DNA from: Eledone cirrhosa | Lineage: Eukaryota | Assembly: GCA_964016885.1 (NCBI GenBank) | Contig: OZ024742.1 | Coordinates: forward strand, 328,538,001-328,602,000 | Reading direction: 5' to 3' | Length of the DNA: 64,000 nt | Part shown: positions 1,163-11,432 of the stretch, piece by piece | Numbering within the stretch: the first letter of the stretch is position 1 | Layout of the letters: each line of letters begins with the position of its first letter | Made by a program: the position numbers and the translations under genes | The notes under the pieces: generated by a model | Database searches by the model: none | The model's input: only the letters and a program-made list of their open reading frames with translations | Told to the model about the DNA's origin: nothing

Positions 1163-2049
1163 AATAAGATAATACATTAATAATTTGGCTGTACATACAT
1201 TAGATATTAGTATTAGAGTTTCTGTTCTGTTACTGTTATATTTTCAATTAAAGCCAAATAAATTTTCATTTTACTGATTATCTGAACTGCAACCTAACAA
1301 AATACTAAAATATATCAGATGCTAAAGTTTAAAACCACTACCAAGATAATAATACAAGAACCAAAGAAATGATGAATATGTTTAGTTTGTATGTCATTTA
1401 ATTCTTCTGCCATACAAAAATGTTTAATTTATTTATATTCAATTAAGTACGAGTATTGTAAATAATTACTATGTAATATTATAACTACTTTCTACGTTCG
1501 TCTTAATTTTTAGTTGTTTTGTTATCAGCCTGGATAAAGGTTACGATAAATGCGCAATTGACACATTAAGATGAAATTTCTTTATTGAAATCTTCGATGT
1601 TGTCCTTTGTGTGGATTTACATACCTTCTCTGTTGAAAAATATAAATTTTTTGATCATATTTTTTAGCATAACGCATACCGTGCATCGAAATATTACCTA
1701 TAAGTAGATTTTACTGGTTTATAATCAGAATCAAAGTGTGTGAGTCTTAATGAAGTACAACACCTGTTGAATTTCGTTTATTTCTTGACTGCTTGCCCTC
1801 CTGCCATCTGTAATTAGTTTTAGCAATTCACAGACAAAAACGCTAGCTCGCAAACATATTATAATCTCAATCTAACACGTTCACTCCAATACGTAAATAC
1901 TAAATATTTATTTATATAGTTATCTATATATAATGGATATACTTCTGTTATTGCTTTACAGGAATTGTGCTAATAATTTTGAATTTGTACTTACAAATTG
2001 AAAATGAAAAACATTAGACTGATTCTACAATTCAATTTTAAACAATCAG

Positions 2050-2700
2050 AGATTGTTCGGGAAAGAACTAATGGCTACCGTAACCTTGATATTTTGATCA
2101 TTTATCAACAAGAGTTACAATATTTTACAATGTTTTAAATCTCTCTTTTTAGTGATTTGCGGTTTGTTTCGTTGCTTGACTAGTAATTGCATAAACAGCA
2201 ATGAATCCACTTCCGGCCACGTATGATAATGGAGAAATGCGAAGCAGTAATTTTATTCGTTTCCAAAGTTAGATATATTAGACATAATGCTCGATGGTGT
2301 GATTTTGTCGAAAACGTACATGTTTATCAATGTCACCTTGCAAGTCAATTTCTTCTCCGTGTAGATTTCTTCCAGCATTATTTGCAGAAATTTGAAATAG
2401 CACTGTCTGGTAATTTCAGTTCATCAAAATCTTTAGAACTTGTTAAAATATCTTACTTCAGTGGTCGAAAATGAGAAAAATATCTGTCCAGATTCTCATC
2501 TAACTAAAATAAATCCGCTATATTGTGTTCCTTCACTGCTTGTAATCTTGTAAACCAATAAAAATTCAGTCCTGTAAATCCAAAGTGCCATCTTTCTGTA
2601 GAATGTTCAACCTGTGCATGTTAATTTCATGAGCAGGCTGTTCGTTGTTCGTTAGACTGAGTCCATGCCGAGGCATTGCATTAAAAAGTCTTGCATCAAA
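2050..2700 (-). pseudogene. Highly degraded hAT (Charlie/Buster-like) transposase fragment
   Basis: Broken minus-strand reading gives SY..SGF..QLLVKQRNKPQIT (hAT dimerisation-region-like) and a TEVR-like motif; many frameshifts. Confidence 0.45.
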
Positions 2701-2919
2701 ATCTTTCTTATTAATCAAATTAATTGCGTATACATAGAGTTAGTGTTAAGTTGGAGTCAAGATTAGGACTCGTTAGAAATCAGTTACGATTTGTTAAGTA
2801 TGGGTTAATTGTTATGATTAGTAGTAGCTTTAGAATTACTGTTAAGGTCACAGTTTACACACACACACACACACACACACTTATATATATATATGGGTGG
2901 GAGGTGTATCTATGTATTA

Positions 2920-3075
2920 GGCGGCGAATTGGAAGAATCGTTAGAACGTTAGATAGAGTGCTTTGTAGTATTCATTTTGGTTCTCTGCGCTCTGAGTTCA
3001 GATCCCGCCGACGTAAACTTTCTCTTTCATCCATTAGTGATCGATAAAATATGTACAGTCAAGTATTGGGGTGGA
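2920..3075 (+). mobile_element. Old SINE related to family B
   Basis: ggcggcgaattggaagaatcgttag ... gagttcagatcccgccg ... ctttcatcc ... cgataaaat. Confidence 0.65.
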
Positions 3076-3474
3076 TTTTTCCTCTATATTTCTTTCTCTC
3101 CTCATTTGTCTCACTATCTCTATCTGGAGAGAAGATGGGCTCCGCCAGGTTTAAAGAAAAGCCCTAGAAACGCAGTATGTCTATATGGCTCCCCTACAAG
3201 TTCTCAGGAGTTACTGTCCATACTACACCATATCATCTATATATTATGTAAAGGAGACCGTTATTCAATCAGTGGCAAAGCACTTAGCACGCAACACACA
3301 CACATATATTAATTGCGTACTTGCAGATGTTACGTTCTAAACATGTGTGTAAATAAGAGCTTGCAAACATATTCGTATTTAAATAAATATTTCAATATGT
3401 ATTCCCTTTCTCACTCTCTCTCTCACGCGCGACCACCCTTACACACACACGAAAAAGCACAAGCACATGTACGC

Positions 3475-4420: not shown

Positions 4421-5035
4421 AAATTTAGAAGAAAGAAACTGCATAACTCCGCTGCAAAGCGAAGATCATCCCCATAATTTCAAACATCGACCTTATGATA
4501 TTTTCCCAAAAGAGCTAACTGAACAGAAGCGAGCTTTTTCTCTAAAAATCTTTTTTCGCATCTTTTCCTTTTCTCACTTTCTTCTATCTTTCTATTACTT
4601 CCTTTAATTTCATTCCGTCTTCTGATGAAATGAAATTAAATCCTGCGAAACCATTTTACTGCCTTGAGAGCTGATGAGGATGAAGATGTGTGTGTGTAAA
4701 CTTGTCTGATACATCGCCTTTCTTTCTTTATTTATTTCAGTCATTTCTATGTGCCAACACACTTCTCCTTATCCCCCTCCTCTTTCAATATTTTCCATAC
4801 TTCATCTGCCTGTGTCCAACCTTGACGACTGACTGTTGACGACTGACTGCTGGTACTGTCCTCTGAGGCATGTTTGCCCATCACTGTTCTTGACAACCTT
4901 TAGCTGAATTAACGGGTTTTCTAGCGATGAGTTTTCTCATTTTTAAAAGTATATAAATATATATATATATAAAAAATTAAGGGAAAGCAAATAAAGCAAA
5001 AATTTCAAATGTATCCCTGTGTGTGTTAATTACAT

Positions 5036-5217
5036 GGTGGATTGGCAGTATCGGTAGAGGGTCGGACACCATTCTTTCCAGCATAGTTACGTCCCTTTAC
5101 GATCTGACTTCAAATCCCACCGAGGTTGACTTTGCCTTTCATCCTTACAAGGTCGATAAAATAAAGTGCCAGTAATGCACTGGGTAATTGCTGGCCTTGT
5201 GCCTAAAGTAGAAACAA
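5036..5217 (+). mobile_element. SINE family B
   Basis: ggtggattggcagtatcggtagag ... gtagaaacaa; TSD ttaattacat (5026-5035 / 5218-5227). Confidence 0.9.
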
Positions 5218-5283
5218 TTAATTACATGTAGGAACACAAGAAATAGATCCCGTCGCATTTGTTGGTATAACCCACCATATAAT

Positions 5284-5934
5284 ATGGAGGTGGCCACACC
5301 ATTAGCTAAGATCTTTCTCTCCCTTATTACGAAGCATTTTCCCCCTACACATAAATATAGTAACATTTTTAATAGAAATACTATTAAAATTTCTTACTCT
5401 ACGACTCCTAACCTTGAACATAACATCACAGCTTCAAATTTAGCTAAACTACCTAGCCGTAGGAACACGTGCAACCCTGTACATAGTACTAACTGTAATT
5501 GTAGGAATCGGGCTGATCGCCCCCTATCCGGGAAATGCCTCTCTAGTAACATTGTCTACAAATGTAAGGTTGTAACACCCACGTCCCGTAGGGCCTACAT
5601 AGGGTTAACCGCCAATAGTTTCAAGCAGCGTCTTTACATGCATACCCATTCTTTTCGTTACCCTCTAAGAAGGAATATGATGTCACTTTTAGCTTATATC
5701 TGGAGTCTAAAAGACAACCACACCCAATATAAGTTACACTGGGAGATCCTAGCTAGGGCTAGATCGTATAACGGAAATAAAAGACCATGTGACCTCTGCG
5801 CCGCTGAGGCCCTGGAAATACTCTACGCCACAGACCACATCTTAAACAAAAAATCTGAGGCAATTTCGGCTTGTAAACATAAATTGCACAAAACTTTCCT
5901 GTATTACAGCCCCACGTTATACCCTAACGGATAG
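5284..5934 (+). CDS. C-terminal part of PLE ORF: linker + GIY-YIG endonuclease
   Basis: The frame continues upstream through WYNPPY; KHFP..IFNRNTIKISYS, CNCR..GKCL, IVY..YIG.T..FKQR..H, YIW.LK, C.LC..E, LNKKSE..CKH. The RT is absent (truncated). Confidence 0.85.
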   Translation: MEVATPLAKIFLSLITKHFPPTHKYSNIFNRNTIKISYSTTPNLEHNITASNLAKLPSRRNTCNPVHSTNCNCRNRADRPLSGKCLSSNIVYKCKVVTPTSRRAYIGLTANSFKQRLYMHTHSFRYPLRRNMMSLLAYIWSLKDNHTQYKLHWEILARARSYNGNKRPCDLCAAEALEILYATDHILNKKSEAISACKHKLHKTFLYYSPTLYPNG

Positions 5935-6875
5935 TACGATCTATACGTGGATATTTTACGTCTTGATGTGGGAGCTAAATATATGTTTTCTTTATACCAT
6001 TACTTATTTGCATAGGTAAGTTTATATTACCCGTATGTTTTGTGAAGGTACGTATACCTTCTCGTACGTATATTTGATTGTTTATGTTATGGCGTATAAT
6101 TTTATATATTCTGATACATATGGTTTGGCTATGTGTATACGGGAGTTTTGCGTCTGTGTGAGTATGCAGGTTCGTACGTATGTAGGGTGTGTGTATATGT
6201 GTACTTCATGTTTTGGTTGACTTACGTCTCCGAACATTCGTGTATTTACATGTAGGTATGTGTGTGCGATTGTTATATACGTAATTATTTATTTATATAC
6301 CTTTATATAATTATTTATTTATTTGTATACACGCATACACACACACACATATTTATATGTGCGTGGTTTTGTATACCTATGGTAAGTGTTTTGCGTATGC
6401 TTGTGTATGTACATATTTGTCTGCGTGTATGTATTTATTTATTTATTTCTATTACTTCCGTATTGTATTTACTTACTTTGTTCTTAACTCTGTAGCGGAG
6501 ATTCATTCGGTCTCCTAGTTAGTATTTTAGTCTACGACTTCTTCTATACCATTTACGTGGTTTTGTCTTTGCGTGCTATTGTTCTCCACGCTCCACATAT
6601 GACGTATTATCTTCGATTTTTTCGTTCATTGCCATAGAACGTTTCTATGAACCACCTAAGAGAACATTAGTCTACGACCTCTTTTATACCATAAACGTGG
6701 TTCTGTCTTTGCACGTAATTGTTTTTCACCGCTCCTATTAATGACGTATTATATTCGTTTTTTCCCGTTCTTTGCCAGCGAACGTTTCCACGAACCAAAG
6801 TATCGTCTTCCTGTCTTCCTCCGGTTGCAACGTTTTTTGAAATATCCACTTCTGCGTTTACAGATTGACTTTGTT

Positions 6876-6926
6876 AGTTTCAGAAGATCCCGTTAAGGGT
6901 GAAAGCAGCGATTCTTTGCTTAAACT
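6876..6926 (+). ncRNA. Type I hammerhead-like motif, variant core CAGAAGA
   Basis: agttt-CAGAAGA-tccc gttaa gggt-GAAA-gca...tgc-TT-aaact; stems I-III pair; U4 is replaced by A. Confidence 0.6.
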
Positions 6927-7052
6927 TTAATCTGTTATTTTAATAAATATTTGCTCTATGGTTCTTATATATTTGATATATATTTATCCTTATCGAGCCC
7001 TCTTTGGATTTTAGTCTTCAAATTTATTATTATTACTATATATATATATATA

Positions 7053-7187
7053 TTGAGAATTAGCCGTCGAAACGGCTTGAGCTCAGCTGTCGGGATCTTA
7101 CTGGTTCCTATTACCCACTCTACTACCCCAAGTATTGAGTACTTTGGTGCGTTATGGTCCACCTGGTTCCTTACCACATTTCCTTCG

Positions 7188-7190
<3 letters not shown>
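7053..7190 (+). mobile_element. PLE 3'-terminal fragment (3' half of HHR + tail) within (TA)n
   Basis: ccgtc-GAAA-cggc..gctg-TC-ggg; same family at 25785-25953, 53776-53971 and 55447-55503. Confidence 0.7.
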
Positions 7191-7249
<59 letters not shown>

Positions 7250-7251
7250 CA

Positions 7252-7711
7252 GAGAGAGAGTGGAAGCAGTAAGAAAGAAACAGACAATCGCAGCTGCGGA
7301 AAAAATATAAATATAAGAAAAATGGAGAGCTGCGTGGTTGCACTTGGGTTACATACGAATACAATTAGTCCTTCATCAGTGATCTTCCAACCTTCATTGG
7401 TATTTCATCGCTTTAAAAATCATATACCGCTGGTTGGTGGAAGCAATAACTAAATAAAGTTATTGGGACAAGTAAAATAGCGTGAAGCGAGTGAGACATG
7501 TAAACAAAGATGGTATTGCAACGGAAAGATAGGAAGATACATGATTTTTAAAGCGATGAAATACCAAAGAAGGTTGGAAGATCACTGATGATGGACTAAT
7601 TTTATTCATATGTAACCCACGTGCACCCACGCAGCACTCCATTTTCCTTATATTTATATTTTTTCCTCAGCTGCGATTGACTGTTTCTTTCTTACTGCTT
7701 CCCCTCTCTCT
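7252..7711. repeat. Fold-back element with ~170-bp inverted arms (7252-7423 / 7541-7711)
   Basis: The arms are reverse complements; related to 30741-31760; next to (TA)n. Confidence 0.85.
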
Positions 7712-7755
7712 GTATCTCTCACCTATGTGTATATATTATACCCCATATATATACA

Positions 7756-8024
7756 TTATACCCTAACGGATAGTACGATCTATACGTGGATATTTTACGT
7801 CTTGATGTGGTAGCTAAGTATACGTTGTGTTTATACCATTACTTATTTGCATAGGGAACGTTTCCACAAACCAAAGTATCGTCTTCCTGTTTTCCTCCGG
7901 TTGCAACGTTTTTTGAAATATCCACTTCTGCGTTTACAGATTGACTTTGTTAGTTTCAGAATATCCCGTTAAGGGTGAAAGCAGCGATTCTTTGCTTAAA
8001 CTTTAATCTGATATTTTAATAAAT
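7756..8024 (+). mobile_element. Second copy of the PLE pLTR lacking the 763-bp segment 6016-6778 (apparently spliced)
   Basis: 7756-7854 matches 5917-6015 and 7855-8024 matches 6779-6950; degenerate HHR at 7952-8002. Confidence 0.85.
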
Positions 8025-8045
8025 ATATATATATATATATATATA

Positions 8046-8208
8046 CCGTATTTCCCGGCACCAAAGAAGCTTCGTCCACGAGGGCGCACCCTAATTTTGA
8101 CAATCAAACATTTGAAAAAGACAATAAACAAACTTCGGCCTCCAGAATGCATGGTAGATTTTTTAGACTTATTTCAGGGAAAAAGTAGCGTCTTTGACGC
8201 CGGAAAAT

Positions 8209-8210
<2 letters not shown>
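8046..8210. mobile_element. Tc1/mariner-pogo-type MITE
   Basis: TA|ccgtatttcccggc ... gccggaaaatac terminal inverted repeats. Confidence 0.65.
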
Positions 8211-8255
<45 letters not shown>

Positions 8256-8306
8256 ATAATGAAATGACAGGAGGCTCGATTTGTGTAAATCCTTGAAAGG
8301 TTTATT

Positions 8307-8364
8307 ATACTATGATCATTTCAATGACCGGGTTCCGTATGAATCCGGTGATATCATCAGGTAT
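8307..8364 (-). ncRNA. Type I hammerhead ribozyme motif
   Basis: Reverse complement of 9621-9678; stem II accgg/ccggt. Confidence 0.7.
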
Positions 8365-9620
8365 TCGAAATATAATACGTGAATGTAATAGGTAAAATCC
8401 ATGGGGCTGAAAATCGAGACCCGAGGGCGACCGCTATTCTGTTCCTTCAACCTCCGCCGGTCGCCCTGGAGTGACGTGGCTAAATTTTATAGTATGCTAC
8501 TACCGGTTAGATGAACGAAAACAGAAAGGGATGGGAGCATAAGTTAACGTCGATCTCATGACACAAGGTAAAAGAAAGAAAGAAAGGAAGGAGAGAGAAG
8601 AAGGGGGAAGAAAGAAGAAGAGAAGCCAGGGTTAATGTCAGCTAAAAGAAGAAAGGCAACTACTACTGGTCAGATATAGGCAAGCAAGAGGGGGAAGGAA
8701 GATAAGTCTGCGGGAGGAAGACAGGAGGAGGGGAGAAGAGAAGGAAGGGAAGACAGAAGTAGAAAAGTAAGGGTTGATGGCTACAAGTAGGAAGATAGAA
8801 AGAAAGAGGAAGAAAGGTCGATATTAATGTCAGACCACAGTCAAGCCAAGAGTGACGCGAGAATACTCGGCGTAGCTTAATTCGCCATGGGGCCCGGGGC
8901 GCGGCCGGTGTTTTAACCGCCACATAGTACCTTTAAATTACAGAACAAATCGGAACTATTATATAATTAAATGTTAAACTGTTGAACTTTAAATTTTCTA
9001 ACCTCTTTAATATTGAATATTGATTATTAATTTGTTTAACTTCATCCTAGAAGTCTAAACACTGTAACACACTGACTCCCAATATATTCATCTCTGCTAA
9101 GATGCGGGTCCCTGTGAACATTTTCTCGCGCCACTCCTGGCTTGACTGTGGTCTGACATTAATATCGACCTTTCTTCCTCTTTCTTTCTATCTTCCTACT
9201 TGTAGCCATCAACCCTTACTTTTCTACTTCTCTCTTCCCTTCCTTCTCTTCTCCCCTCCTCCTGTCTTCCTCCCGCAGACTTATCTTCCTTCCCCTCTTG
9301 CTTGCCTATATCTGACCAGTAGTAGTTGCCTTTCTTCTTTTAGCTGACATTAACCCTGGCTTCTCTTATTCTTTCTTTCCCCTTCTTCTCTCTCCTTCCT
9401 TTCTTTCTTTCTTTTACCTTGTGTCATGAGATCGACGTTAACTTATGCTCCCATCCCTTTCTGTTTTCGTTCATCTGACCGGTAGTAGCATACTATAAAA
9501 TTTAGCCACGTCACTCCAGGGCGACCGGCTGAGGTTGAAGGAACAGAATAGCGGTCACCCTCGGGTCTCGATTTTCAGCCCCATGGATTTTACCTATTAC
9601 ATTCACGTATTATATTTCGA

Positions 9621-9678
9621 ATACCTGATGATATCACTGGATTCATACGGAACCCGGTCATTGAAATGATCATAGTAT
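9621..9678 (+). ncRNA. Type I hammerhead ribozyme motif
   Basis: atac-CTGATGA-stem II-GAAA-tgatca-TA-gtat; palindromic stem III atgatcat; followed by aataaa. Confidence 0.7.
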
Positions 9679-9727
9679 AATAAACCTTTCAAGGATTTAC
9701 ACAAATCCAGCCTCCTGTCATTTCATT

Positions 9728-9908
9728 GTGGATTGGCAGTATCGGTAGAGGGTCGGACGCCATGCTTTCCAGCATAGTTACGTCCCTTTACGATCTGAGT
9801 TCAAATCCCGCCGAGGTTGACTTTACCTTTCATCCTTACGGGGTCGATAAAATAAAGTACCAGTAATGCACTGGATAATTGCTGGCCTTGTGCCTAAAAG
9901 TAGAAACA
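9728..9908 (+). mobile_element. SINE family B
   Basis: Near-identical to 5036-5217. Confidence 0.9.
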
Positions 9909-10353: not shown

Positions 10354-11432
10354 ATCTCTACGTATTCCTTACCGGACAACCGGTGTGGGCCCCGTTCGTG
10401 AGGCGAGCCTTCCCACGACTCGTCTCGCTGACCGAGCTGCAGTCCTGTGTCAAGCAAAGACCGAGGAAAATGGGCGACTGGCACATCGAATGTGCTCAAG
10501 CGCTCATAGCCCTCTAGCAGGCGGACCCGGCGATCAGTGGAGACTCCACTTCGTCATTCTATAGAGGGTTGATCCGCAGCAAGTGCGACGACGCGCTCGG
10601 TGAAACTCTAGGCGTAGGGGAAGATGAACTGGCCAGTCTGTTCGGTAGGACCTTCCACCCGGGACCGATGGACAACTTCAAAAGTCCCTGGCCTGGCAGT
10701 GCTACCGAGGAGCTCTACCAGTTCGAGACAAGCTCTACAGACATGGGTGCCCGGGCAGGGACCCTGCAAAAAAGATCTGTCCGAGGTGCGTGCAAGACGA
10801 AGAAACCGTCGCGCATGCATTCATACACTGCCCGGGCGTCACTGACCTGTGGGGCTATGTAGAACGACTATTGTCGCGGGTGGGACCAATCTGGTTGACC
10901 ACCGAGTCCATTGTCATGATCAAACCGCCACTCTCCTTCAAAAACGAAGGAGAGGCGGTTTTCCTTTGTGTGATAGCTATGGCGAAAGAGGTTGTATGAT
11001 GGACAAGGTTGAAAGGGCTGAGGTCAGACACCTTTCTCTCCGGCCAACAACTGATTCTTTTTTTCAAATACCACTTTGGAAGAAGAATCAGCATGGAGAG
11101 AGAGGTGCTGTACCCCAGCAAGTTTTATGAAAGGAGGGTGAAAGTGGCGAGAATGGCCCGAGTGAATGGGCCTTCTCTCTATATCAGCCTGTAGGTTGAG
11201 GAAAAAGAGGAGGAGAGGAAAAGAGTACAAACTCTTCGTACTCCTGGAGATGAGGGTTGCACATTTTTTCGGGGGTATGTGTTACCCATATGAACTGTTT
11301 CCCCCTATTGGGGAAAATCGACTAATTTTTAAATTGCATTTGTGATAGCATTTTACACGTTTTTATCGTATGTAAACTTCCCCCTTTGTATTTGTCCCCT
11401 ACTGTTGTGCCCCTGTAGCTAATAAAGAAACA
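10354..11432 (+). mobile_element. 5'-truncated Tx1/L1-type LINE (3' end of ORF2 + 3' UTR)
   Basis: Highly similar to 16204-17287; CPRC..ETVAH..IHC zinc finger; aataaa; (ATCT)n on both sides. Confidence 0.92.

What the first reader, a model, noticed from the sequence alone, without database searches (positions are those of the whole stretch)
5917..8024. Unspliced and spliced copies of the same Penelope pLTR about 1 kb apart
Seen: copy 2 (7756-8024) equals copy 1 (5917-6950) minus 763 bp. The missing segment starts at catag|GTAAGT (6016) and ends at ttttttcccgttctttgcCAG| (6778), a consensus donor and a polypyrimidine acceptor. One base just after the junction differs (c vs g), so a 1-nt-shifted plain deletion fits equally well by alignment alone. 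Established: PLEs can retain introns through retrotransposition. Inference: both unspliced and spliced RNAs of this family were reverse-transcribed.
Basis: partly seen in the sequence, partly recalled or inferred. Interest (0 to 1): 0.75.

Follow-up and report, generated by a model that had tools for sequence, protein, structure and literature searches.

The report
Spliced and unspliced Penelope-like retrotransposon copies
Two neighbouring copies of a Penelope-like retrotransposon differ by exactly one 763-base segment with intron-type (GT...AG) borders, and hundreds of copies elsewhere in the genome lack it at the same borders, so RNAs of this family were likely reverse-transcribed both before and after splicing.

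Summary
Window 5914-6015 plus 6779-6949 recurs at 7753-8025 without the 763 bp at 6016-6778 (GTAAGT...polypyrimidine-CAG).

The element is a 5'-truncated Penelope-like retrotransposon. By its motifs it belongs to the Hydra clade. The repeat is its 3'-terminal (pLTR-forming) region.

Exact-pattern counts in the 3-Gb genome:
- 2,556 copies keep the exon1/intron border.
- 236 carry the exon1|exon2 junction.
- 98 carry a second junction, from an alternative donor (GAAG|GTACGT, 6047|6048) to the same acceptor.
- Reversed-pattern controls gave 0.

Both C and G occur after the AG in intron-containing copies and in intron-less copies, each linked to its own flanking markers. Short copies are therefore not one clade (AU test p=0.0005). 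Removal at GT-AG borders happened at least four times.

The two window copies belong to different lineages. They are independent insertions, not parent and offspring.

No RNA data could be laid, so splicing is inferred from DNA only.

Intron retention in PLEs and spliced retro-copies of other elements are both known. This is a well-documented new member of a known kind, of moderate interest.

The parts
5238..5934 (+). 3' part of the single ORF of copy 1: end of the RT region, CxCx5C linker and GIY-YIG-type endonuclease. The copy is 5'-truncated at about 5238. The stop codon is at 5932-5934.
   Evidence: ORF 5212-5934. It aligns at 96.7% to positions 1668-3412 of the full-length relative L141. 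Motifs were found in the full-length protein P0001. Pfam gave no hit.
5914..6015 (+). Exon 1 of the 3'-terminal (pLTR-forming) region of copy 1, ending ...TTATTTGCATAG. It carries C-lineage markers (5972 G, 5988 T).
6016..6778 (+). 763-bp intron-like segment: GTAAGT at the 5' end, and 21 of 25 pyrimidines followed by CAG at the 3' end. It holds low-complexity DNA and a ~140-bp tandem duplication.
   Evidence: It is absent at exactly these borders in 236 genomic copies.
6048..6053 (+). Alternative 5' splice site GAAG|GTACGT. Copies that used it keep 6016-6047 and join 6047 to 6779.
   Evidence: 98 exact genomic junctions, control 0. A joint 6048>6780 of depth 498 stands in the contigs of run X1.
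6527..6797 (+). Two units of a ~140-bp tandem duplication (6527-6654 and 6667-6797). The second unit spans the acceptor and the first bases of exon 2. In most copies the first unit carries a look-alike CCAG that is not used.
   Evidence: (D8, D9). The junction to the unit-1 site gave 0 matches.
6779..6949 (+). Exon 2 of copy 1, ending ...TTTTAATAAATA. The first base is C (C lineage).
6950..7036 (+). Optional 87-nt 3' tail of copy 1, followed by (TA)n. Its last ~33 nt are the reverse complement of the first ~33 nt of the full-length element.
   Evidence: element positions 140-189 match window 7053-7004 at 100%. One search shows the two types of 3' end among the copies.
7753..7854 (+). Exon 1 of copy 2. 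This copy is heavily 5'-truncated and has no ORF. It carries G-lineage markers (T at the site equivalent to 5972).
7855..8025 (+). Exon 2 of copy 2, joined directly to exon 1 (CATAG|GGAACG). It has no tail and is followed by (TA)n.

Best explanation
The 763-bp segment 6016-6778 lies in the sense strand of the 3'-terminal region of a Penelope-like retrotransposon, is bounded by GT and AG, and is likely a spliceosomal intron that most template RNAs of the family still carried, and a minority had lost, when they were reverse-transcribed. Shown directly: the family has thousands of copies, and about 12% of those that reach exon 1 lack the segment. They lack it at one of two donors (CATAG|GTAAGT or GAAG|GTACGT), always joined to the same acceptor (polypyrimidine-CAG|). 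Both the intron-containing and the intron-less forms exist in at least two sequence lineages, with lineage markers intact on both sides of the junction. Intron-less copies have many different 5' truncation points, so each is a separate insertion. Inferred: removal was done by the spliceosome on sense transcripts. Unspliced RNA is the usual template, which is the known PLE habit of intron retention. Spliced RNA is used occasionally, or spliced full-length copies seeded further short copies. In the window, copy 1 (C lineage, unspliced, with tail) and copy 2 (G lineage, spliced at donor 1, no tail) are two independent 5'-truncated insertions. They likely lie close together because the family targets (TA)n tracts.
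For: Exact-pattern counts in the own genome (reversed-pattern controls 0 in every case):
- exon1|exon2 junction: 236, of which 156 have C after the junction;
- exon1|intron donor: 2,556;
- intron|exon2 acceptor: 5,635, of which 1,618 have C; by my count the first 100 rows are 67 G, 29 C, 2 A, 2 T;
- alternative-donor junction 6047|6779: 98, which I read as 91 G, 6 C, 1 A.

Linked markers, with classes named by form (L = long, intron-containing; S = short, intron-less) and by the base at 6779 (C or G):
- site 5972 is G in 32 of 35 LC and 35 of 35 SC, and T in 6 of 8 LG and 33 of 33 SG;
- site 5573 is T in 25 of 28 LC and 22 of 22 SC, and A in 3 of 5 LG and 18 of 18 SG.

Haplotypes shared by long and short copies: GCGTAACC (13 short, 15 long), ACTAAAGC (15 short, 2 long), GTGTAACC (6 short, 2 long), GCGTTTCG (2 short, 3 long).

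Alternative-donor copies: 11 of 11 G-type carry G-lineage markers, and 4 of 5 distinct C-type copies carry C-lineage markers.

Tree tests:
- The AU test rejects one clade of short copies among 86 rows (52 short, 34 long): p=0.00048, lnL difference 84.5.
- Within the C lineage alone (27 short, 29 long): p=0.011.

In copy 1 only 3 sites fit AG|GTRNGT in exon 1 plus the intron (6014, 6046, 6254), and two of them are the junction starts used. The acceptor AG has 21 of 25 pyrimidines upstream, the most of any AG from 6479 to the acceptor.

In the contigs of run X1 the three deepest joints are 6016>6780 (depth 601), 6048>6780 (498) and 6013>6777 (143, labelled GT..AG). The other 12 joints have depth 25 or less.

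Of 20 spliced copies fetched with 2.5 kb upstream, the 5' ends lie at element positions 1, 189, 362, 395, 704 ... 1646.

Literature (passages read): PLEs keep introns through retrotransposition, and Penelope RNA is mostly spliced (PMC2377424, PMC8557442, PMC3846280).
Against: - No RNA evidence: no RNA run was listed for this sequence. Because the joined form exists as DNA, RNA reads across the junction would not by themselves prove splicing.
- A look-alike acceptor in the upstream repeat unit (TTCATTGCCAG|AG, present in most copies) is never joined to donor 1 (0 matches).
- The third AG|GTATGT site (6254) is never used (0 matches).
- One C-type alternative-donor copy (L147) carries G-lineage markers. 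So some base change or recombination occurs.
- 5 of 43 long copies mix markers.
- Two copies in L035 have a junction that keeps the last 4 intron bases (CATAG-CCAG-G/A), which the majority sequence does not explain by a canonical AG.
- The trees are poorly resolved. There are 21 long/short changes against 22-28 in the 10 printed of 200 shuffles, so the number of events cannot be counted from them.
- The long C-lineage sample was taken from the BLAST hits nearest to copy 1, and the G-lineage short sample from the hits nearest to copy 2, so neither is random.
Confidence: 0.8

Rival explanations
1. Splicing, or one precise deletion, happened only once or a few times. The hundreds of short copies were then made by full-length intron-less master elements, so short copies say little about which RNAs are normally used as templates.
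For: Short copies of each lineage are uniform at the junction. The lineages differ strongly in donor use: C lineage 156 at donor 1 against 6 at donor 2, and other lineages 80 against 92. That pattern looks like founder effects. One full-length (L176) and one nearly full-length (L183) spliced copy exist among the 20 examined.
Against: At least four lineage-by-donor combinations exist with linked markers, plus a sub-haplotype (5996 T, 5999 T, 6849 G) present in both forms. Monophyly of short copies is rejected overall and within the C lineage. None of the 20 spliced copies examined has an intact ORF; the longest is 548 of 713 aa.
Confidence: 0.3
2. The short forms are not products of the spliceosome. 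They arise from reverse-transcriptase template jumps, or from DNA-level deletion, between the 2-nt AG microhomologies, possibly helped by the similarity of TTATTTGCATAG (exon 1 end) to TTCTTTGCCAG (intron end).
For: BLAST extends the exon 2 match 11-15 nt into the intron end because of that similarity (query start at 91, 100-106 or 144). The junction is ambiguous by 2 nt, AG ('cut +2'). PLE reverse transcription is unusual in that it initiates internally (PMC11167929, passages).
Against: There are 21 AG dinucleotides in exon 1 plus the intron, but only two are used, and both are followed by GTAAGT or GTACGT. The near-identical CCAG of the upstream repeat unit is never used. The sequence just 3' of the jump points (GTAAGT against CGAACG) gives no homology for a minus-strand jump. 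The other joints seen in X1 contigs are at least 5 times lower in depth.
Confidence: 0.08
3. The short form is ancestral, and the 763 bp is an insertion (another mobile element or an expansion) into the long form.
For: The segment is rich in low-complexity DNA and holds a tandem duplication. Short forms are compact, like the <3 kb described for the Hydra clade (PMC8557442, section 11).
Against: The 98 copies that keep exactly the first 32 nt of the segment, ending at a second GT, cannot arise from an insertion model. The segment has no terminal inverted repeats and no target duplication beyond AG. It carries lineage markers that co-vary with the flanks, for example 6032 C/T. The same insert would have to enter both lineages at the same base.
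Confidence: 0.02

Closest known systems
Penelope of Drosophila virilis, with its 75-bp intron in the pLTR / 5' UTR (Arkhipova et al. 2003, known to me only through passages in PMC2377424 and PMC8557442)
   Same: An EN+ PLE whose terminal-repeat region holds a GT-AG intron. Genomic copies keep the intron although the RNA is spliced. It also shows tandem and inverted arrangements, 5' truncation and an optional tail.
   Different: Here the intron is 763 bp rather than 75 bp. It starts 81 nt after the stop codon, in the 3'-terminal region. It has two alternative donors. Intron-less genomic copies number in the hundreds. The element belongs to a different clade. No hammerhead motif abuts the intron end, unlike Penelope (PMC4209133, passages).
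Chlamys-3_cRei of Chlamydomonas reinhardtii (PMC8557442, passages)
   Same: A PLE with an intron of several hundred bp (398 bp, alternative isoform 751 bp) that spans the pLTR boundary, with alternative splice isoforms.
   Different: That case rests on Iso-Seq RNA reads of one active copy in an N-terminal-EN clade. Here the evidence is integrated DNA copies of both isoforms in a C-terminal-EN element of an animal.
Hydra clade of C-terminal EN+ PLEs (PMC8557442, section 11 read whole)
   Same: A single ORF of about 700 aa, RW[K/R], DKT instead of DKG, a CxCx5C linker, CxxC and CxH in the EN, and insertion into (TA)n.
   Different: Canonical hammerhead ribozymes, 'readily detected' in that clade, were not found here by Rfam. 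With the intron the element is about 3.2-3.3 kb, not under 3 kb. Placement in the clade's phylogeny was not tested.
Human LINE-1 SpIREs, spliced integrated retrotransposed elements (PMC5860796; search listing and start of abstract only)
   Same: Genomic retro-copies that lack a segment bounded by functional splice donor and acceptor sites inside the element show that spliced element RNA can be retrotransposed.
   Different: L1 is a non-LTR element in which unspliced full-length RNA is the norm because the splice sites are weak. In PLEs intron retention is a class-wide peculiarity, so the ratio of spliced to unspliced copies bears on the still-open question of which template is used.

Membership tests
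Penelope-like elements (EN+, C-terminal endonuclease) | A single ORF with a reverse transcriptase followed by a GIY-YIG endonuclease | tested here: inconclusive
   The 713-aa ORF of the full-length relative L141 has YRDD, DKT, IVYKC...YIGLT and CxxC/CxH by regex. It has 834 homologues of about 700 aa. No Pfam RT or GIY-YIG profile hit came at E<=1 for it or for 4 homologues.
Penelope-like elements (EN+, C-terminal endonuclease) | Tandem and head-to-head inverted insertions (pLTR structure) with variable 5' truncation | tested here: met
   Inverted pairs. The tail is joined directly to the next unit's 5' UTR in L016, L017 and L019. Variable 5' ends.
Penelope-like elements (EN+, C-terminal endonuclease) | Optional short 3' 'tail' extension in a fraction of copies | tested here: met
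   There are two 3'-end types...TTTTAATAAATA followed by (TA)n, or followed by an ~87-nt tail. The concept comes from PMC11167929 (passages).
Penelope-like elements (EN+, C-terminal endonuclease) | Hammerhead ribozyme motif in the terminal repeat | tested here: not met
   No hammerhead hit at E<=1 in window 4800-8300 or in L141 1-4000. The only box-like string in exon 2 is CAGAAGA in 111 of 123 copies, not CUGAUGA. Minimal PLE hammerheads may escape Rfam models.
Penelope-like elements (EN+, C-terminal endonuclease) | Introns retained in genomic copies | tested here: met
   2,556 donor borders and 5,635 acceptor borders are retained, against 334 spliced junctions.
Hydra clade of PLEs | RWK motif, DKT in place of DKG, CxCx5C linker, CxxC and CxH in the EN | tested here: met
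   RWR at residue 41, DKT at 119, CNCRNRVDC at 568, CDLC at 666, CKH at 694 of P0001. The criteria are from PMC8557442, section 11.
Hydra clade of PLEs | Insertion into (TA)n | tested here: met
   (TA)n directly follows the 3' end in nearly all copies printed, and precedes the 5' end of L141.
Hydra clade of PLEs | Groups with reference Hydra-clade proteins in an RT/EN phylogeny | not tested
   No named reference sequences were on hand.
Spliceosomal (GT-AG) intron | GT...AG borders, consensus-like donor, polypyrimidine tract before the AG | tested here: met
   CATAG|GTAAGT and 21 of 25 pyrimidines followed by CAG|. The donor is intact in 31 of 33 long copies and the acceptor AG in 37 of 40.
Spliceosomal (GT-AG) intron | Precise removal at those borders, recurrently, with alternative splice-site use | tested here: met
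   at the DNA level.
Spliceosomal (GT-AG) intron | Spliced and unspliced RNA observed | not testable with these tools
   No RNA run was listed. The runs laid are contigs of unknown kind.

The most novel reading that the evidence does not exclude
This family gives a natural read-out of which RNA a Penelope-like element copies. Spliced sense-strand RNA was integrated hundreds of times, and both arms of head-to-head pairs always share one splice state, down to a rare 4-nt-shifted junction. So PLE insertions, inverted pairs included, are templated by a single sense RNA molecule. Intron retention would then reflect capture of the pre-mRNA before splicing, not an antisense template. The ~12% spliced copies are mostly dead ends, because the intron carries sequences that a source element needs.
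Probability: 0.35. Interest if true: 0.65.

Novelty: new member of a known kind. Interest (0 to 1): 0.5.

Why it matters
How Penelope-like elements keep their introns through an RNA intermediate is unresolved. Published proposals include an antisense template or an unspliced sense template (PMC3846280, passages). This family has thousands of young copies and a long intron, with integrated products of two splice isoforms in marker-defined lineages. It shows that sense-strand spliced RNA can be integrated, and it gives a rough ratio: about 12% of copies that reach exon 1 are spliced. It also warns annotators that 'subfamilies' differing by a clean internal deletion may be splice isoforms. Three searches of the held paper library found no paper describing intron-less genomic PLE copies on this scale. 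The founding 2003 paper is not held and may mention some.

Tried and rejected
- MAFFT placed the short copy's exon 1 against the intron's 3' end. I replaced it with reference-anchored BLAST alignments.
- Pfam gave no hit for the window ORF, the full-length ORF or 4 homologues.
- Rfam gave no hammerhead or other credible RNA family. All hits were below the gathering score and lay on TA repeats.
- A first regex for a hammerhead-like box was mis-written and found nothing. It was corrected.
- The search of earlier findings returned nothing for this genome.
- The look-up of sequencing runs listed no RNA holder.
- Contigs of X4, X7 and X8 (other organisms; 63, 59 and 3 contigs laid) showed no joints at all, which says nothing either way.
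- Junctions predicted for a pseudo-acceptor in the upstream repeat unit and for a third AG|GT site gave 0 matches each.
- Of 40 randomly chosen acceptor-bearing copies, only 14 reach exon 1. The rest are 5'-truncated inside the intron, so they could not be used for linkage.
- Arkhipova et al. 2003 could not be read.
- The 2026 retrozyme preprint held nothing on PLE introns.
- I rejected the idea that copy 2 descends from copy 1: they belong to different lineages.
- I rejected the insertion model (see rivals).
Full report
**Observation.**
5914-6019 matches 7753-7858 at 93%, and 6777-6950 matches 7853-8026 at 97%. Copy 1 reads ...TTATTTGCATAG(6015)|GTAAGT...TTTTTTCCCGTTCTTTGCCAG(6778)|CGAACGTTTCC. 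Copy 2 reads ...TTATTTGCATAG(7854)|GGAACGTTTCC. The piece missing from copy 2 is 6016-6778, 763 bp. The first base after the junction differs (C at 6779, G at 7855), so from these two copies alone a deletion of 6017-6779 fits as well as removal of 6016-6778. A global MAFFT alignment misplaced exon 1 and was not used.

**What the element is.**
- Upstream of copy 1, an open frame (5212-5934) runs into the repeat and stops at 5932-5934.
- It has no Pfam hit.
- Other genomic copies continue further 5', so copy 1 is 5'-truncated at about 5238.
- A full-length relative (L141) has one ORF of 713 aa (P0001). It also has no Pfam hit, but it has 834 homologues of about 700 aa in public data.
- By regex the ORF carries RWR (residue 41), DKT (119), YRDD (350), CNCRNRVDC (a CxCx5C, 568), IVYKC and YIGLT (587, 602), CDLC (666) and CKH (694).
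- These are the features that Craig et al. list for the 'Hydra' clade of C-terminal-endonuclease Penelope-like elements: RWK, DKT instead of DKG, a CxCx5C linker, CxxC/CxH in the EN, and (TA)n targets (PMC8557442, section 11, read whole).
- The family also shows head-to-head inverted pairs, tandem joins (L016, L017, L019) and variable 5' truncation.
- It has two alternative 3' ends, with or without an ~87-nt tail. This fits the PLE 'tail' signature described in PMC11167929 (passages).
- One expected feature is missing. No hammerhead ribozyme was found by Rfam at E<=1, either in the window stretch or in the full-length copy. The only box-like string is CAGAAGA in 111 of 123 copies.
- I therefore file it as a PLE, Hydra-like by motifs, without a phylogenetic test. 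It becomes a pLTR in tandem or inverted arrays.

**Does the junction recur?**
BLAST of copy 1 against the window's own 3.0-Gb genome returned 40 or more intron-containing copies at 95-97% identity, with 3,183 candidates. BLAST of copy 2 returned 40 or more contiguous intron-less copies at 96-98%, with 2,541 candidates.

Exact pattern counts (reversed-pattern controls were 0 in every case):

| Pattern | Matches |
|---|---|
| exon1\|exon2 junction TTATTTGCATAG-N-GAACGTTTCC | 236 |
| the same with C after the junction | 156 |
| retained donor TTATTTGCATAG\|GTAAGT-N-TATA | 2,556 |
| retained acceptor GTTCTTTGCCAG-N-GAACGTTTCC | 5,635 |
| the same with C after the AG | 1,618 |

In the first 100 acceptor rows I count 67 G, 29 C, 2 A and 2 T. 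The acceptor count is higher because most copies are 5'-truncated inside the intron: 26 of 40 randomly picked ones do not reach exon 1.

Intron-containing copies therefore come with either C or G after the AG, and so do intron-less copies. The junction CATAG|CGAACG is exactly what canonical GT-AG removal from copy 1's own lineage predicts. Copy 2's CATAG|GGAACG is what it predicts for the G lineage.

**A second splice isoform.**
Laying contigs of run X1 (kind unknown, same organism label as the best holders) on 5700-6950 showed three deep joints:
- 6016>6780, depth 601;
- 6048>6780, depth 498;
- 6013>6777, depth 143, labelled GT..AG.

The 12 other joints had depth 25 or less, and several of them skip 141-170 nt, about one unit of the tandem repeat.

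The 6048>6780 joint corresponds to a second donor, GAAG|GTACGT, joined to the same acceptor. Its junction pattern occurs 98 times in the genome against 0 in the control. I read the rows as 91 with G, 6 with C and 1 with A. These copies keep donor 1, so they are included in the 2,556.

Among copies that reach exon 1, the spliced fraction is (236+98)/(236+2,556) = 334/2,792, about 12%. All counts are exact-match counts and hence lower bounds.

In copy 1 only three sites in exon 1 plus the intron fit AG|GTRNGT (6014, 6046, 6254), out of 21 AG dinucleotides. Two of them are the ones used. The acceptor AG has the most pyrimidine-rich upstream 25 nt (21 of 25) of any AG from 6479 to the acceptor.

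**One event or several?**
I fetched 80 further loci by pattern position, 20 alternative-donor loci and 20 extended spliced loci. I aligned ORF tail plus exon 1 plus exon 2 to the window copy. After removing overlapping duplicates there were 114 copies: 35 long-C (LC), 36 short-C (SC), 8 long-G (LG), 33 short-G (SG) and 2 others.

Markers upstream of the junction co-vary with the base after it, in both forms:

| Site | LC | SC | LG | SG |
|---|---|---|---|---|
| 5972 | G in 32/35 | G in 35/35 | T in 6/8 | T in 33/33 |
| 5573 | T in 25/28 | T in 22/22 | A in 3/5 | A in 18/18 |

Haplotypes over eight sites are shared by long and short copies:
- GCGTAACC: 13 short, 15 long;
- ACTAAAGC: 15 short, 2 long;
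- GTGTAACC: 6 short, 2 long;
- GCGTTTCG: 2 short, 3 long. This differs from the main C haplotype by three transversions that flank the junction on both sides.

Alternative-donor copies follow the same rule. 11 of 11 G-type copies carry G-lineage markers. 4 of 5 distinct C-type copies carry C-lineage markers; the exception is L147. The single A-type copy carries G-lineage markers.

On a tree of 86 rows (488 columns, intron excluded) long/short state changes 21 times. The 10 printed of 200 shuffles gave 22-28, so the tree has little resolution. An AU test rejects a single clade of short copies (p=0.00048, lnL difference 84.5). It does so within the C lineage alone as well (27 short against 29 long, p=0.011).

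Mean pairwise distances are 2.7-4.5% within classes and 3.1% between long-C and short-C.

Of 20 spliced copies followed 2.5 kb upstream, the 5' ends fall at many different element positions, from 1 to 1646. None has an intact ORF; the longest is 548 aa.

I conclude that removal at GT-AG borders happened at least four times (two donors by two lineages), and probably more often. Each short copy is a separate insertion.

**Results that do not fit neatly.**
- In most copies the upstream unit of the ~140-bp tandem repeat inside the intron carries a look-alike acceptor, TTCATTGCCAG|AG. No copy joins donor 1 to it (0 matches).
- The third AG|GT site is unused (0 matches).
- Two copies forming an inverted pair in L035 keep the last four intron bases at the junction (CATAG-CCAG-G/A). 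One long copy has TCTTAGCCAG, which would create an AG at that spot. That is a possible source, not a shown one.
- 5 of 43 long copies, and L147, mix lineage markers.
- The lineages differ in donor use: C lineage 156 at donor 1 against 6 at donor 2, others 80 against 92. This may reflect sequence effects on splice-site choice, or amplification from a few spliced founders.
- No RNA run was listed, so the step 'spliceosome acted on a sense transcript' is inferred from DNA.

**Mechanism and rivals.**
- Best explanation (0.8): a spliceosomal-type intron in the pLTR-forming region. Unspliced sense RNA is the usual template and spliced RNA an occasional one.
- How many short copies come from fresh splicing, and how many from spliced master copies, is open. 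I give the 'few events, then masters' variant 0.3. It is a variant inside the best explanation (0.8), not an alternative to it, so its confidence is part of the 0.8 and is not to be added to the other figures.
- A non-spliceosomal template jump at AG microhomology (0.08) is disfavoured. Only consensus-like donors are used, and the near-identical upstream CCAG is never used.
- An insertion into an ancestral short form (0.02) cannot explain the 98 copies that keep exactly 32 nt up to a second GT.

**The window itself.**
- Copy 1 (5238-7036) is of the C lineage, unspliced, and has the tail.
- Copy 2 (7753-8025) is of the G lineage, spliced at donor 1, and has no tail or ORF.
- They differ at the lineage markers. 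So they are independent insertions, about 0.7 kb apart in a stretch full of (TA)n, which is the family's target.
- They are separated by an unrelated 0.5-kb foldback (7228-7736).

**Comparison with what is known.**
- PLEs are known to retain introns. Penelope's 75-bp pLTR intron is spliced in most transcripts yet is kept in genomic copies (PMC2377424, passages; PMC8557442, passages).
- An antisense template or an unspliced sense template has been proposed to explain this (PMC3846280, passages).
- Chlamys-3_cRei has a 398/751-bp alternatively spliced intron at the pLTR boundary.
- Spliced integrated copies are documented for human L1 (PMC5860796; listing and start of abstract only).
- New here are a Hydra-like family with a long intron downstream of the stop codon, integrated copies of two splice isoforms in the hundreds, and a rough retained-to-spliced ratio.
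- Searches of the held library found no description of this for PLEs. The 2003 founding paper is not held.

**Verdict.**
This is a new member of a known kind, with interest 0.5.

Noticed in passing
window 6950-7053; L141, L016, L017, L019: The optional 87-nt 3' tail ends in the reverse complement of the element's first ~33 nt (GTAATAATAATAAATTTGAAGACTAAAATCCA). In tandem joins, the tail runs straight into the next unit's 5' UTR just after those 33 nt. The element ends thus form a short palindrome around the (TA)n target.
   Followed up: partly
genome-wide; e.g. L034, L035, L038, L052/L053, L060, L048/L056, L033/L046, L005/L015, L019: Both arms of a head-to-head inverted pair have the same splice state in every pair I looked at: 7 short/short and 2 long/long among the fetched loci. 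I also count at least 16 short/short pairs of the same C or G type among the first 100 rows. The two arms of L035 share the rare junction that keeps CCAG. This fits one template per inverted insertion.
   Followed up: partly
genome-wide counts: Donor choice differs by lineage. The C lineage has 156 junctions at donor 1 against 6 at donor 2. The other lineages (mostly G) have 80 against 92. Lineage-specific bases near the donors (5988, 6032) or founder effects could explain it.
   Followed up: no
window 5029-5207 and 9720-9898: A 179-nt dispersed repeat (94% between the two copies) abuts the 5' truncation point of copy 1. It looks like a short interspersed element.
   Followed up: no
window 8258-9727: A large, nearly perfect foldback: arms 8258-8693 / 9292-9727 (436 nt, 98%) and 8691-8863 / 9123-9295 (173 nt, 98%). 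A smaller foldback lies at 7228-7426 / 7538-7736 (199 nt, 88%), between the two PLE copies.
   Followed up: no
window 10518-10999: Open frames with a Cys/His-rich stretch (…CPRCVQDEETVAHAFIHCPGV…) that, from memory, resembles the C-terminal region of non-LTR retrotransposon ORF2 proteins. Not searched.
   Followed up: no
Contig sets labelled as several other organisms hold 22-45% of the sampled 31-mers of this stretch. Near-identical copies of the family therefore occur in related genomes. Too few contigs were laid to see their splice state.
   Followed up: partly
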